64,000 nucleotides of DNA from positions 344,720,001 through 344,784,000 of the forward strand of contig OZ024743.1 in NCBI GenBank assembly GCA_964016885.1, in the 5' to 3' direction. Positions 11,942 through 40,769 of this stretch are shown here, piece after piece. The position numbers were made by a program, and so were the translations under genes. Origin of the DNA: Eledone cirrhosa (Eukaryota). The notes beneath the pieces are model-generated. The model was not told the DNA's origin. It saw nothing but the letters and a program-made list of their open reading frames with translations, and made no database searches. The stretch's first letter is position 1; each line of letters opens with the position of its first letter.

Positions 11942-12180
11942 TATATATAATGTGTAAAAATCTAACTGAAGAAGCACGTTATAAACGATTGCCGCCCACG
12001 CACACAATAAAGAATTTGTAATAAAAACATATCGTATCCTTGTCATCAATCTACGTATATATTCTAATTGATATCAAGAATGTAGACCGGATTTTACTGT
12101 TTTAATATACAGTGTAATATAAAATATTTTTGTGGTAAAATATTGAAAGTATAAACAAAACGAAAATATTAAATTTGTAG

Positions 12181-12280
12181 GTGTTGCTTTGTCGGAATTT
12201 TGCATAAACACACGACAGAAGAGATGTCCATTTGCCGCGGTATATTCACATATGGATCAAGATGTTATGGACTTCTGCAG
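12181..12280 (+). CDS. Host gene exon 2: N-half of six-Cys module 1 (VALSEFCINTRQKRCPFAAVYSHMDQDVMDFC)
   Basis: Acceptor tttgtag|, donor CAG|gtagat, 100 nt, phase 1 to 2, open frame. Paralogous to exon 4. Confidence 0.88.
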
Positions 12281-12819
12281 GTAGATATAAGTTCCTTACT
12301 GTTAATATTATTACTACATACAATATTTATACATTTATTTAATTATATAACCAGTGATACCATCAGCTGTTGAATACTAATGTTTGTAACTTTAGTATAA
12401 AACTGGAAATAGTTCATCGGACTGTAATTGATTCAATAATTTCCTGTACTTTCTGTATCGATCTTAACTAGTGAAATTAGACCGTAATATGATTTAAACA
12501 TACGCCTAACAGATAACTAAATATATAGTTGATCTCTAAGATATGCAAAAGTCCAAAAATGTCGGATTTAAGCAACAGTCAGTTAAATGTAAATCTTGCC
12601 TTGAATATTTCATAAATCTCAAACGTATAAAAGATAGTATTTTATCTAGGATTAAGCATTTTAAATATTGGAAAGCATTTTAAACATTTAGTTAGCTTAT
12701 CAAATATAGTGGAATTATATCAGTAAATATATAACACAAAATATTGCGAGCTGTGACAATAATTTAGTTTTCTAAAATGCACTTCTCTGATCAAAATAAT
12801 GTTCCCTTTCATCTTACAG

Positions 12820-12914
12820 ACGTATGACCGAATATGAACGATGTGGTGCTGTGAATAAAAGTGTGGCGTGCAACGATTTCTTCAATTTCATCTATACGTA
12901 TTATTGCCATTACG
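12820..12914 (+). CDS. Host gene exon 3: C-half of module 1 (RRMTEYERCGAVNKSVACNDFFNFIYTYYCHY)
   Basis: Acceptor tttcatcttacag|, donor G|gtaatt, 95 nt, phase 2 to 1. Contains an NKS glycosylation sequon. Confidence 0.88.
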
Positions 12915-13149
12915 GTAATTCAATCTTATTGACAGGAGCTGTGTATGAGTGAACTAAATTCCAAACAAAAATTATATTGGTCAAGTTACATTATTAGTTC
13001 ATATTCCACTATCATCGATTTTCCATTCAACTGAAATTAATGTTTGAAAAAAGAAACATGGCTTTTGCCAAATGTAACTATATATTGTTTTGAATTCAGC
13101 ACTGAAATCCTTTAATAAGGACACAATCCGGAAATGCTGTGCACCGGTC

Positions 13150-14095
13150 TTTTCCATTTATCTTTACTGCAACCCAGACATAGGATTTCGGATAACTAAT
13201 TCCCAGTAGATTTCTTGATGGTGTCCGTCCATATTCTCCTATGTATGCTTCTGCTATTTCCCAATCCACAGTTCCTTGAAGAATATTGCAAGGCTACTGG
13301 ATCTTGTTACATGGTGATACCAACCCTGTTCTTTAACCGTCGTGTGAAGGTGTTGATAATAGCCAATGTAGTGTTGGTGGGTTACATGGATCATCTGATA
13401 TGTGATGTTATCCATGTTACGAGACACTTAAAATTTCGCAGTAGCTTCTCATTTCATCTGTTTGTAACTTTCACTGAATCTATGGAGTGAGAGTTTGTCT
13501 GTCATATGCGCATAGGGATATATATTGTGACAGTGCCCGTAGGAATCTAATCCTGATCTTCGTGGATTTTGTTTCTATCGTTGCGTATTGGTTTTAGTTT
13601 GATTAGTGCAGCCAATGTATGTGCGATTCTTGAAAGGATTTCTGATGGACATTGCTCTTGATTTGCTTAAGGGAGACGTTGAAGAAAATGGAGGGAAATA
13701 AAGCAACTTTTACAAACATCTCTATCTGTATTTAACCAAACCATCTCGTAAAGTTGTTGCATAGAATGAAATTCCTTCTCCCTCCAACCAAGTTCGTCCT
13801 ATTGGCACATAATGCATGTGGCCAGAGAATTAAGCACCTTCCAGAAATATATAAAAAGACGGTATAATCCTCATTGCTACTGAATGGATTTCTATGTTTA
13901 TGGAAGCCTACATGGTCCTCGGCTATAAAATCTTGTTAGTGGTGCCCTTAATCTAATCCAAACAGCGCTGAGCGTTACCTTGCTTGCAAGGTTGAATATC
14001 CTAATGACAGGATCATTCTTGTATATATGAAGATTGCTTCATCTGCGAAGCGTTATGGCACAATAAGTCGAACATTTACCAGTCAGTAAGATCCT
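13150..14095 (-). pseudogene. Highly decayed Penelope-like element (GIY-YIG remnant)
   Basis: Minus strand reads NITYQMIHVTHQHYIGYYQHLHTTVKEQ then TVDWEIAE, resembling NVVY..C..C...YIG.T.R.L..R.KEH and IDW motifs. Confidence 0.5.
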
Positions 14096-14238
14096 TTTGC
14101 ATATATATATATATATATATATATATATATATAAGTGTGTAAATGAAGTAATTCCGTCGGAAAGGTCCAGGAAAAAAGAGTGCTCTATGTAGGTTAGAGA
14201 GCTTCATAGTTATGTAATAAACAACATAAGGCAATTAT

Positions 14239-14297
14239 TTCATTTACCAGCGGTTTCTTGAAAGCAAACAAATTTTGCTTTCAATCATTAGAATAAA
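14239..14297 (-). ncRNA. Hammerhead ribozyme, core-mutated copy (CTAATGA)
   Basis: Inverted twin of 21661-21719 with a G5A change. Confidence 0.7.
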
Positions 14298-37999: not shown

Positions 38000-38280
38000 A
38001 TCACTGCCCCCCTCTGTCCCGCTCTTCCCATCTTTTCACTATTGTGAGCAAATTGGGGTCCACGTGCTGGCTGCCCAGCGGCCCCGGTGAACAGAATAGA
38101 GAAGGCGTTTCACCGGAGGATGGGGAGGTGGTTCTAGAGCCAAGGACACCAGAAGTCTCCACTGCTACGGGCTCGACCGCAAACCTGTCGGAGAGCGACC
38201 GATATTTAGAAAGTTTACTCTCCTCAACTCGAAGTACTGCAGAGTCTGGGTTAGTCGTAGACTGCACCAGGTTGCCGCTG
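38000..38280 (-). pseudogene. 3' fragment of a restriction-like-endonuclease non-LTR element (CRE-like)
   Basis: EESKLSKYRSLSDRFAVEPVAVETSGVLG then ILR*NAFSIL, resembling E..K..KY...PvAvEt.G and QRGNA motifs. Confidence 0.6.
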
Positions 38281-38662
38281 TATTACTATAATTATAAATA
38301 TTTTTGATCACACATCCTGTGACCCTCTCAATGATTGTTTTTGCTCCTCTTTTTTCTGCTCTTGTCTTGACAAAATGGAGTAGGGAAAACAAGAATACAT
38401 ATTTTATTTTAAATCTAACTGAAGATGCACCCCACTAACTTATAACTTCCCTTACACAACATCACAACATATTAATGAAAAATCAAAACAAAATAAAACA
38501 AACTTATCCTCGTCATTATCAAACTATGTATAATTGATTTCATCTGCTAACGTGGATACAAACCAGAACGGTATGCTTTAATTTATGGTAAATTGTCTAA
38601 TATTTACATAATATTGTAAGAATATTTAAGATGTAAAAATAACAAATGATTCAAAATTTTAG

Positions 38663-38762
38663 AACCTAGAGTGCCAGAAGACTGCTTAAGTAAGGATTAC
38701 CCATTTTGCCCGCAAGCCGAGCACATGTATCCTTTAAGAAAACCAGATCATAATTATTGCAG
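38663..38762 (+). CDS. Host gene exon 4: N-half of module 2 (EPRVPEDCLSKDYPFCPQAEHMYPLRKPDHNYC)
   Basis: Acceptor aattttag|, donor CAG|gtacat, 100 nt. Same length, phases and Cys spacing as exon 2. Confidence 0.88.
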
Positions 38763-38774
38763 GTACATGTACAA

Positions 38775-40197
38775 TTCTTCTTCTTCTTCTTCTTCTTCTT
38801 CTTCTTCTTCTTCTTCTTGGCCGACCAGTGGTGCCTTCCATTGCTGGCGGTCCCGTGCCACCCTTTCTGCATCCTCCAAGGTGAGGTTGACCCTCTGGAG
38901 ATCTTCCTTGTTGACATCCAGCCATTAGGTGCGGGGCTTGCCGTCGGGCGTTTTCCAACCTGTAGTTACGGTTTCAAACGAGAGTAAGGCCCTAGTAGGA
39001 TGATGTAGCGACAAGCAGAGAACATGTCCGTACCAGCGTATGAGGCGGACAGCTATGAGGCGGGAAGCTGAGGGCTGATGTGCATGGGCACGAAATCCTT
39101 TGTTGGAAATATAGTAACATCTGATGTACTCGATTGTTCTCAGGGCTCGACTATCGAAGTCGTCTATTTTCTTTACCAAGGTCTTTGTGAGTGGCCCCTT
39201 TTCTACTCCATAGAGGAGAACGGAGAGGACAGACGCATTCTAGATACGGAGCTTTGTATTCCGGAAGATAGAGCAGTGGTGTCAAAGGGGCTTCCATAGG
39301 GATTACATGACCCCGGTGGCCAGACCATATTTGCAGTTGATCTCTGGGGCCAGGTCTCCATGGTTGTTGACTGTTGAACCCAGGTAAATGAAGGAACTGA
39401 CCAACTCCACGACGTCGGGGCCAATATGAAGCGGGGGAGGAACCGGGCCCTCACCGACATGCATCAGCTTCGTCTTCACCCAGCTCACCTAAAGACCAAG
39501 CTTTGCAGATTTCTCTCTGTATATGGTCAGTGTCTCACTGAGCTTATCAGTCGAGTTACTGAATCGGGTGGTGTCGTTCAAGTTTTCCAGGTCGGTAACA
39601 TGGTAGTTCCCGAGGGTAAGACCAGAGACTCGCTTACAGACCTTGGTCATCAGATAGTTGATGACAAAGCTGAAGAGGTCGAGAGTAGCAAGGCAGCTCT
39701 ATCTGACACCTCTGTCGACAGAGAAACAGTCGGAGTCCTTCCCGTTCACACGCACAAAACTCTCGTTGATGATAATTTTCCAGCCACCTGAAGGTCGGCA
39801 AAGGGGATCTCGCAGAACTCCCGAGATCTTTCAATAATACGACGAATGGCAGAAATGTGGTCGGTGTTAAATCAATTTGGCATGAATTCGACTTGTTGTG
39901 GGCGACGTCTGCTCCTAATGACGGGAAGAGCACGGCTGAGGAGGATCTTGATGAAAATCTTGCTTGCTTGGGGATGGAAAGGAGGGTGATATCCCTGTGA
40001 TTGCTGCAGACGAGTTTGTCGCCCTTCCGTTTTCAGAAGCGGAGAATGATGTCCCGGGTCCAATTATTTGGGAGCTGATCTGACACCTATACATGGTTGA
40101 TGATGTAGACGAAACACTGGATCAAGGGGCTCGGCTTTTTGATCCTAAAATCTCTCCCGGGTATTCGTGATGGCCTTGTTGCGTATCCGGTTGAGCA
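38775..40197 (-). pseudogene. 5'-truncated RTE-like LINE with (AAG)n tail
   Basis: KIFIKILL, SWVKTKLM, SSFIYLGSTV, RLIRWYGHV motifs; (TTC)n at 38775-38818. Confidence 0.8.
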
Positions 40198-40267
40198 ATA
40201 AATAATTCAAATATTGTCCGATATGTTCTATTTGTCTAAATTGTTCTCCTATTTTTTAATCTTACAG

Positions 40268-40359
40268 ACGCCTGCTTGTATATAAAAAATGTGCCAAAAG
40301 AAGTGAAGGGAAAGTGTGCAATTTGCATTTCAAAACGATCTTTTCCACTGAATGTATTA
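40268..40359 (+). CDS. Host gene exon 5: C-half of module 2 (RRLLVYKKCAKRSEGKVCNLHFKTIFSTECI)
   Basis: Acceptor tttaatcttacag|, donor A|gtaagt, 92 nt, phase 2 to 1. Same Cys spacing as exon 3. Confidence 0.88.
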
Positions 40360-40769
40360 GTAAGTAGCTTTAATTAATTTGATGTTATTGATAGGAATGG
40401 TGTATCAACTAACAAAATTCAAAACGGAAATTATATTTGTCAAGTTACATTGTGAAACCATATTTCACCATGTTTCATTTTGTACTCAATTGAAGTTAAC
40501 GTTTGAAAATAGTCTTTGCAAGTATAATTTCATAATTACCTTGCATTGAGCGTTAATCTACATATGGTGTCATAGGATCACGGTTTTAAATACTGTACCC
40601 AAGTCATTTTCATCAGTTTTAGCTGTGTGCAGCTGTCCATTTCCAGTTGTTGTTCATCTCTATTGTGCTGTGCGCTTCCCCTTCTCTTCTTCACCAACAT
40701 TTTCTACATATGTTTATAATTAACTAGGCCTAATACACATTCAGATAAACAGTTAATTTAAAACATCAT

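What the first reader, a model, noticed from the sequence alone, without database searches (positions are those of the whole stretch)
11958..40451. Duplicated module with introns far more conserved than exons (toxin/immune-like hypervariability)
Seen: the exon 2-3 block and the exon 4-5 block are a genomic duplication. Intronic 11958-11977 vs 38411-38430 match 19/20, and 12929-12992 vs 40388-40451 match 51/64 ungapped (about 80%). Exon 3 vs exon 5 match only about 44/90 nt, and the modules share 14/56 residues, 6 of them Cys (hand counts on selected blocks). Established: conserved introns with hypervariable exons on a fixed Cys frame are typical of conotoxins, snake-venom PLA2/three-finger toxins and gamete- or immune-recognition proteins. 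Inference: strong diversifying selection on this surface protein.
Basis: partly seen in the sequence, partly recalled or inferred. Interest (0 to 1): 0.85.

Follow-up and report, generated by a model that had tools for sequence, protein, structure and literature searches.

The report
Fast-diverging twin-module octopod surface gene
A predicted single-copy gene for a small, probably lipid-anchored cell-surface protein carries two duplicated cysteine-framed modules whose coding parts have diverged about twice as far as the introns around them, which likely reflects selection for new binding surfaces, as in toxin and recognition genes, although no RNA or relative was found to confirm it.

Summary
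The duplication is real. Exons 12181-12280/12820-12914 and 38663-38762/40268-40359 are copies of one two-exon module: same phases, six Cys at identical spacing. They lie in a clean predicted six-exon gene of 167 aa: signal peptide, two modules, GPI-like tail. All alignable intron is 65% identical (319/492, d about 0.5), exons 45-49% (d 0.9-1.0; p 2e-4 to 2e-6). The blocks are not dispersed repeats or detectable RNAs. New: an inverted, stop-bearing copy of the last exon (48517-48432, minus) with 637 aligned intron bases shows the same divergence (65%, d 0.48). It gives a second clock and suggests one duplication of module plus tail, then an inversion that fused the copies. Neutral same-age divergence is rejected (15 identical residues, 27 expected). 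Plain dN/dS is about 0.6, not above 1. A model with roughly half the codons under strong diversifying selection beats an older duplication with converted or constrained introns by about 12:1 on two sequences. No homologue, family, paralogue or RNA was found, so function and splicing are inferred. The likely anchor argues for surface recognition, not venom.

The parts
8448..8484 (+). Coding part of predicted exon 1: ATG and hydrophobic half of a signal peptide, phase-1 donor GTAAGT
   Evidence: the only convincing signal-like exon among 6 candidates on both strands of the window; joining to exon 2 inferred, no RNA
11453..11956 (.). Repeat element in intron 1 with a palindromic right end; it bounds the homology on the left
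   Evidence: 60 genome matches listed, 58 of them to its end; a full copy 45 kb right of the window
11957..12180 (+). Intron stretch before exon 2, homologous to 38410-38662
   Evidence: 142/224 = 63%, z=8.1
12181..12280 (+). Exon 2: first half of module 1, 3 Cys, phase 1 to 2
12745..12819 (+). 3' end of intron 2, weakly homologous to 40200-40267
   Evidence: 38/63, z=1.7; z=4.1 with lenient gaps
12820..12914 (+). Exon 3: second half of module 1, 3 Cys, phase 2 to 1; fragment predicted as helix-loop-helix
   Evidence: pLDDT 69 on a 31-aa fragment
12915..13175 (+). Intron stretch after exon 3, homologous to 40374-40635
   Evidence: 104/141 = 74% ungapped, z=16.7, then 64/110 = 58%, z=4.0
38410..38662 (+). 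Intron stretch before exon 4, partner of 11957-12180
38663..38762 (+). Exon 4: first half of module 2, 3 Cys, phase 1 to 2
38775..40195 (-). Decayed, 5'-truncated LINE with a (CTT)n end, inserted antisense in intron 4 (ends approximate; RTE type recalled, not tested)
   Evidence: reverse-transcriptase-like remnants with stops; sequence
40268..40359 (+). Exon 5: second half of module 2, 3 Cys, phase 2 to 1, donor GTAAGT
40374..40635 (+). Intron stretch after exon 5, partner of 12915-13175
45877..46838 (+). 3' part of intron 5 (interrupted by a SINE at about 46481-46640), homologous to 49300-48518 on the minus strand
   Evidence: 416/637 = 65%, d 0.48; z=28.9 and 9.8
46839..46918 (+). Coding part of exon 6: short polar spacer and 13-residue hydrophobic end, GPI-anchor-signal-like; stop codon
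   Evidence: hydropathy; one of 2 tail-like candidates in the window; GPI use inferred
48432..48517 (-). Inverted relic of exon 6: same acceptor, TAG at codon 2 of the homologous frame, then an open GPI-like tail
   Evidence: 43/72 = 60% to exon 6
48518..49300 (-). Intron upstream of the inverted relic exon
   Evidence: (only other genome match is 45880-46182)

Best explanation
This is a predicted six-exon gene for a small, likely GPI-anchored surface protein whose two six-cysteine modules come from one duplication, and whose non-cysteine codons likely diverged under strong diversifying selection while introns and tail exon drifted at a probably neutral rate. Shown by sequence: the duplication, the open reading frame with canonical splice sites, the fixed Cys frame, the two-fold excess of exon over intron distance, and an inverted relic of the last exon with the same intron divergence. 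Inferred origin: a unit of module plus tail was duplicated tail-to-tail; one inversion then turned copy 2 round and placed it behind module 1, which gives exactly the order seen (exon 1, module 1, module 2, tail +, tail -). Inferred function: each module folds as a small disulfide-held, mostly helical domain that presents a variable binding face. The protein would sit on the cell surface and recognise an outside partner (microbe or parasite, gamete, or another cell); selection would have pushed the two faces apart so that one molecule carries two specificities. The partner is unknown.
For: Gene model: 167 codons without stop, all 5 introns GT-AG, phases 1,2,1,2,1. Module introns 319/492 (d 0.51) and tail introns 416/637 (d 0.48) do not differ (p=0.90); mismatches are evenly spread (clustering p 0.23-0.34); simulated intron at d 1.0-2.1 aligns at 49%, at d 0.5 at 65%. 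The tail exon diverged like intron (43/72, p=0.36). Neutral same-age model: expected 26.7 identical residues and 127 identical bases, seen 15 (p=0.00025) and 83 (0 of 4000 simulations). Joint intron+codon fit: shared clock with a fast class beats shared neutral clock by 15-20 lnL and beats the old-duplication model by 1.1-2.7 lnL in 4 of 4 settings. Parametric bootstrap: the observed margin of 2.5 arose in 1.3% of 400 simulations under the old model and is typical under the selection model; density ratio 11.6. 20 of 62 codons have posterior above 0.9 for the fast class. Third positions of the 15 unchanged residues differ at 5, near the 3.7 expected at intron distance. Replacements are more conservative than shuffled (p=0.008), so the register is right and the fold is kept. 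The same pattern is described for snake-venom PLA2 genes (PMC7285919, passages) and conotoxin genes (PMC3862624, passages).
Against: One-ratio dN/dS is 0.61-0.63 with dS 1.5-1.6 and is not different from 1 (p about 0.3). Freeing the fast class in the exon-only mixture gains only 2.0 lnL. The 5 of 15 synonymous differences also fit d=2.1 (expected 7.4, p=0.16). Tail exon vs module exons is not significant (p=0.17). No significant transversion excess in exons (p=0.22). Only two sequences of 62 codons; the margin shrinks to 1.1-1.6 lnL with an alternative gapped loop alignment. No second exon 1, expected if a whole gene had been duplicated, was found within -100 to +164 kb or by genome search. 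Two separate duplications of similar age would give the same layout. Signal peptide and GPI signal were judged by eye and hydropathy only.
Confidence: 0.55

Rival explanations
1. Older duplication with intronic gene conversion. Two paralogues, lying tail-to-tail, diverged long ago (dS about 2, about 30% of codons conserved, the rest near neutral). Conversion kept introns and tail alike until the rearrangement stopped it at d about 0.5, while selection removed tracts that covered the module exons. Selection here preserves differences rather than speeding change.
For: One-ratio dS 1.5-1.6 and equal identity at all three codon positions; fit within 1.1-2.7 lnL of the best model; middle intron between the two exons is poorly alignable; precedent in primate opsins (PMC3924837, passages).
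Against: Bootstrap margin reached in 1.3% of simulations; intron identity is already 20/30 within 36 nt of the exon 3/5 end against 13/30 inside the exon, and 17/30 vs 14/30 at the exon 2/4 start, so at the first of these the tracts would have to stop almost at the exon edge; 5 of 15 synonymous differences lie below the 7.4 expected, though not significantly.
Confidence: 0.2
2. The exons changed fast for mutational reasons: local hypermutation or wholesale replacement of segments between fixed cysteines (ASSET-like), with selection only keeping the cysteines.
For: All three codon positions are equally diverged; the fast class is saturated; both ideas have been proposed for toxin genes (PMC7285919, passages; PMC3862624 reports raised Ds in mature-peptide exons).
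Against: Replacements are more conservative than random (p=0.008); no length change between any of the six Cys; synonymous sites of unchanged residues fit intron distance; exon 6 is not accelerated.
Confidence: 0.08
3. The two modules are not one message: alternative or mutually exclusive modules, or a gene now decaying. Read-through of the exon 3 or exon 5 donor would also give secreted one- or two-module forms.
For: Exon 3 and exon 4 are 25.7 kb apart across a repeat-rich intron; both modules are phase 1-1, so either can be skipped in frame; read-through ends in a stop after 12 or 2 codons.
Against: Only one signal exon and one sense tail exon were found; all splice sites and all 12 Cys are intact despite d about 0.5, which a dead module would rarely keep.
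Confidence: 0.1
4. Old duplication with functionally constrained intron flanks (splicing or expression elements, or a hidden RNA) and exons drifting under weak constraint.
For: Statistically the same codon model as the conversion rival; conserved intron ends are reported in conotoxin genes (PMC3862624, passage).
Against: No Rfam match at gathering score; folding z between -0.8 and +1.2 for 6 of 6 strands; no codon periodicity, 12/11/11 mismatches by phase; no clustering of matches; the same 65% holds over 637 nt in front of an antisense relic exon.
Confidence: 0.05

Closest known systems
Crotaline snake-venom phospholipase A2 isozyme genes (accelerated exon evolution; Nakashima 1993, as reviewed in PMC7285919, passages seen)
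   Same: Introns more conserved than mature-protein exons; substitutions at similar rates at all three codon positions; targeting exon not accelerated.
   Different: Those are multigene secreted enzymes with Ka close to or above Ks; here the comparison is between two modules inside one apparently single-copy gene, pairwise omega is about 0.6, and there is no PLA2 similarity.
Conotoxin gene superfamilies (PMC3862624, passages seen)
   Same: Mollusc gene, short exons, phase-1 first intron, fixed Cys frame, variable loops, introns conserved among copies, raised Dn and Ds in mature exons.
   Different: Conotoxins have signal-pro-mature layouts in 2-3 exons and come in large secreted families; here six exons, two modules of about 63 aa, a GPI-like tail, no family found.
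Primate red/green opsin duplicates (conversion in introns, divergence peak on an exon; PMC3924837, passages seen)
   Same: Neighbouring duplicates with introns more alike than the functional exon.
   Different: There conversion is ongoing and shown with orthologues; here the copies are 35% diverged in introns and now lie in one gene.
RGM N-terminal domain (PF06535), and by recall neuritin and DUF19 domains
   Same: Six Cys in about 65 residues with a C-x8-C core; GPI-anchored helical proteins (anchor and fold recalled).
   Different: The genome's own RGM_N match lies elsewhere in one exon, spacing 4/21/8/7/21 vs 7/16/8/8/11, no sequence similarity (p 0.88-0.99).

Membership tests
Accelerated-exon (toxin-type) genes | Introns more conserved than mature-protein exons | tested here: met
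   65% vs 45-49%, p 2e-4 to 2e-6
Accelerated-exon (toxin-type) genes | Fixed cysteine frame with variable loops | tested here: met
   6 of 6 Cys aligned without gaps, 9 of 56 other residues identical
Accelerated-exon (toxin-type) genes | dN/dS near or above 1 | tested here: inconclusive
   one-ratio 0.6, not different from 1; site mixture favours a fast class about 12:1
Accelerated-exon (toxin-type) genes | Multigene family | tested here: not met
   no third module by DNA, protein or pattern search of the genome or by profile scans of 864 kb; distant paralogues would be missed, since exon 3 did not retrieve exon 5
Venom toxin (conotoxin, PLA2, three-finger) | Sequence or family match | tested here: not met
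   0 Pfam families for 5 exon peptides; no meaningful PDB match; fragments only, so a weak test
Venom toxin (conotoxin, PLA2, three-finger) | Secreted and expressed in venom gland | not testable with these tools
   needs RNA from the organism; the hydrophobic C-terminus suggests tethering
GPI-anchored protein | N-terminal signal peptide and C-terminal spacer plus hydrophobic end without cytoplasmic tail | tested here: met
   hydropathy peaks 3.2 at the start and 2.9 at the end, stop directly after; no dedicated predictor run
GPI-anchored protein | Release by PI-PLC or anchor shown biochemically | not testable with these tools
   bench test
RGM N-terminal domain (PF06535) | Cys spacing and profile match | tested here: not met
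DUF19 (PF01579) / neuritin | Profile match | tested here: inconclusive
   no Pfam hit on half-module fragments; genome search for PF01579 rang nowhere, controls included; neuritin not searched separately
Intronic structured RNA (snoRNA, miRNA) | Rfam match or stable shared fold in the conserved blocks | tested here: not met

The most novel reading that the evidence does not exclude
Two functional one-module GPI-anchored paralogues of an undescribed, octopod-restricted cysteine-helical family stood tail-to-tail, diverged at about half their codons under intense selection, and were fused by a single inversion into a two-headed recognition protein; the antisense tail exon with its in-frame hydrophobic end and early stop is the fossil of the second gene.
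Probability: 0.25. Interest if true: 0.65.

Novelty: new variant of a known kind. Interest (0 to 1): 0.46.

Why it matters
Exons outrunning their own introns is a hallmark of molecular arms races and is mostly described in multigene toxin families. Here it appears between two modules inside one apparently single-copy, probably surface-tethered gene with no detected relatives, and the locus carries its own second clock (the inverted tail copy). If true, it names a concrete candidate for immune, gamete or cell-cell recognition in an octopus-like animal, and it records how such a two-specificity protein was built. The pattern itself is known, the selection evidence rests on 62 codons, and no function is shown, so the score is moderate.

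Tried and rejected
Homologues: none in 3 word-indexed protein searches (8, 2 and 0 candidates, none scored), none at E<=0.001 among 1.84 billion representatives, 0 Pfam families, PDB 0 and 5 weak matches at E 0.46-1.6 judged chance, Atlas one 0.76 lead and one blank. All queries were single exons of 25-45 aa or pairs of them, so these blanks show neither novelty nor absence; the full spliced protein was never searched or folded. RNA: no RNA holder listed; the 3 runs listed come from one sample, behave like genomic DNA and may be the source of the assembly; their contigs cover exons 4, 5 and 6 with no other letters but say nothing on splicing. Read support for exons 1-3 and any hidden allele or unassembled copy remain unchecked. 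A minus-strand match of 11453-11956 at 45 kb right of the window first looked like a paralogous gene but is a repeat copy ending at the element's edge. The only other genome hit of exon 3 (E 2.9) is a tandem repeat. Conserved block as hidden exon, 3' UTR or RNA: no periodicity, fold or Rfam match. RGM_N resemblance rejected. Fragment folds were low-confidence (pLDDT 69 and 54), so no fold search was run. One search crashed in its dS profile and one search failed; they were replaced. Literature searches with no paper; one search listed 2 unrelated reviews (listing only). Findings look-ups were blank. The organism label 'octopod' rests on recalled repeat types, the 3.0 Gb genome and wording in earlier notes, not on a test of mine.
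Full report
Observation. The exon pairs are 12181-12280 with 12820-12914, and 38663-38762 with 40268-40359. They have the same phases (1-2, 2-1), equal or nearly equal lengths (100/100, 95/92) and six Cys at spacing 7/16/8/8/11 in both. They share 15 of 62 residues and 83 of 186 bases. With one strict aligner and splice signals trimmed, the alignable intron gives 319/492 = 65% (d 0.51, interval 0.43-0.60) and the exons 93/189 = 49% (d 0.88) or, codon-anchored, 45% (d 1.02); p = 2e-4 and 2e-6. 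The contrast is real and about two-fold in distance. The blocks occur only at these two places in the 3.0 Gb genome (2 of 2 matches; exon 3/5 pattern 2 matches, control 0).

The gene. A signal-peptide exon (8448-8484) and a last exon (46839-46918) complete a 167-codon frame with five GT-AG introns in compatible phases. The ends are hydrophobic, the stop follows the C-terminal hydrophobic run directly, and there is one N-glycosylation sequon. A scan of both strands gave 6 signal-like and 2 tail-like candidates, of which these two fit position and phase. Fragment models show helices in both halves at low confidence. Splicing, anchor and fold are predictions. No relative or family was found, but only half-module fragments could be used as queries. 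The recalled likeness to the RGM N-terminal domain failed against the genome's own RGM_N match. No third module was seen in 864 kb around the gene.

A second clock. An inverted copy of the last exon lies at 48517-48432 on the minus strand, with intron homology running to 49300. It has no other match in the genome. Its homologous frame has TAG at codon 2 and then an open, GPI-like tail. The 637 aligned intron bases are 65% identical (d 0.48), the same as the module introns (p = 0.90), and the tail exon itself is 43/72 = 60%. Mismatches are evenly spread in both sets, and simulated intron at d of 1 or more would align at only 49%. The blocks show no Rfam match at gathering score, no unusual folding and no codon periodicity. 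The simplest reading is about 1,130 nt of neutrally decaying intron from one duplication that covered module and tail. A tail-to-tail duplication followed by one inversion yields the observed order: exon 1, module 1, module 2, tail (+), tail (-). It also explains why intron 5 matches both the stretch after exon 3 and the stretch before the relic. This route is inferred. A second exon 1 was not found, and two separate duplications of like age fit too.

Selection. If exons are as old as introns and evolved neutrally apart from Cys, 26.7 residues should be identical; 15 are (p = 0.00025). The joint fit rejects a single neutral clock by 15-20 lnL. Two models remain. (S) Same age, about 55% of codons in a very fast class. 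(O) Exons much older (dS about 2.1, 30% of codons conserved), with introns held back by conversion or constraint. One-ratio dN/dS is 0.6 and does not separate them. S fits better by 1.1-2.7 lnL in 4 of 4 settings. In 400 simulations each, the observed margin arose in 1.3% under O and was typical under S, a density ratio of 11.6. Synonymous differences at unchanged residues (5 of 15) fit both (3.7 and 7.4 expected). Replacements are milder than random (p = 0.008), so the fold is kept. I put S at 0.55 and conversion with divergence-preserving selection at 0.2; both imply that selection favoured different modules.

Comparison. The pattern matches snake-venom PLA2 genes, where introns are more conserved than mature exons and all codon positions change alike (PMC7285919, passages), and conotoxin genes (PMC3862624, passages). 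The conversion rival matches primate opsins (PMC3924837, passages). It differs in being inside one apparently single-copy gene with a likely anchor, so it works like a fast-evolving recognition protein but is not filed as a toxin. Four literature searches for a description returned no paper and one returned two unrelated reviews; the library lacks most subscription journals.

Verdict. Real feature, overstated in size, extended by an inverted relic that dates it. New variant of a known kind; interest 0.46.

Noticed in passing
window 48432-49300, minus strand: Inverted relic of the last exon with about 780 nt of its intron; early TAG but an otherwise open hydrophobic tail; a second AG five bases downstream would skip the stop for a phase-0 upstream exon. 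No upstream exons for it were found.
   Followed up: yes
window 12915-12952 and 40360-40367: Read-through of the exon 3 or exon 5 donor ends in a stop after 12 or 2 codons, which would give secreted one- or two-module forms.
   Followed up: no
window 14500-35500: Intron 3 is filled with nested, mirrored duplications of retroelement-like sequence (for example 16360-17860 vs 18100-19170 and 21600-23250 vs 26750-28000, read by eye; two copies per tile), with long ORF remnants at 25106 and 31028; Penelope type recalled.
   Followed up: no
window 11453-11956: Non-autonomous repeat ending in a 68-nt palindrome (11889-11956) that is widespread in the genome; a full copy lies about 45 kb right of the window.
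   Followed up: partly
window 41000-43500: Decayed multi-copy element in intron 5 (read depth about 50 times unique DNA); helicase/Helitron-like by recall only.
   Followed up: no
window 40386-40550: About 50 open codons in the intron block after exon 5, but the partner block has stops in that frame and mismatches show no codon periodicity.
   Followed up: partly
L120 (G000:C5, minus strand): The genome's RGM N-terminal domain match (35.5 bits, over the cut-off), in one exon.
   Followed up: partly
L036-L117 (400 kb on each side of the window): Open frames of 300 aa or more look like retroelement proteins or low-complexity sequence (judged from their first 70 residues); no conserved neighbouring gene was identified.
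   Followed up: partly
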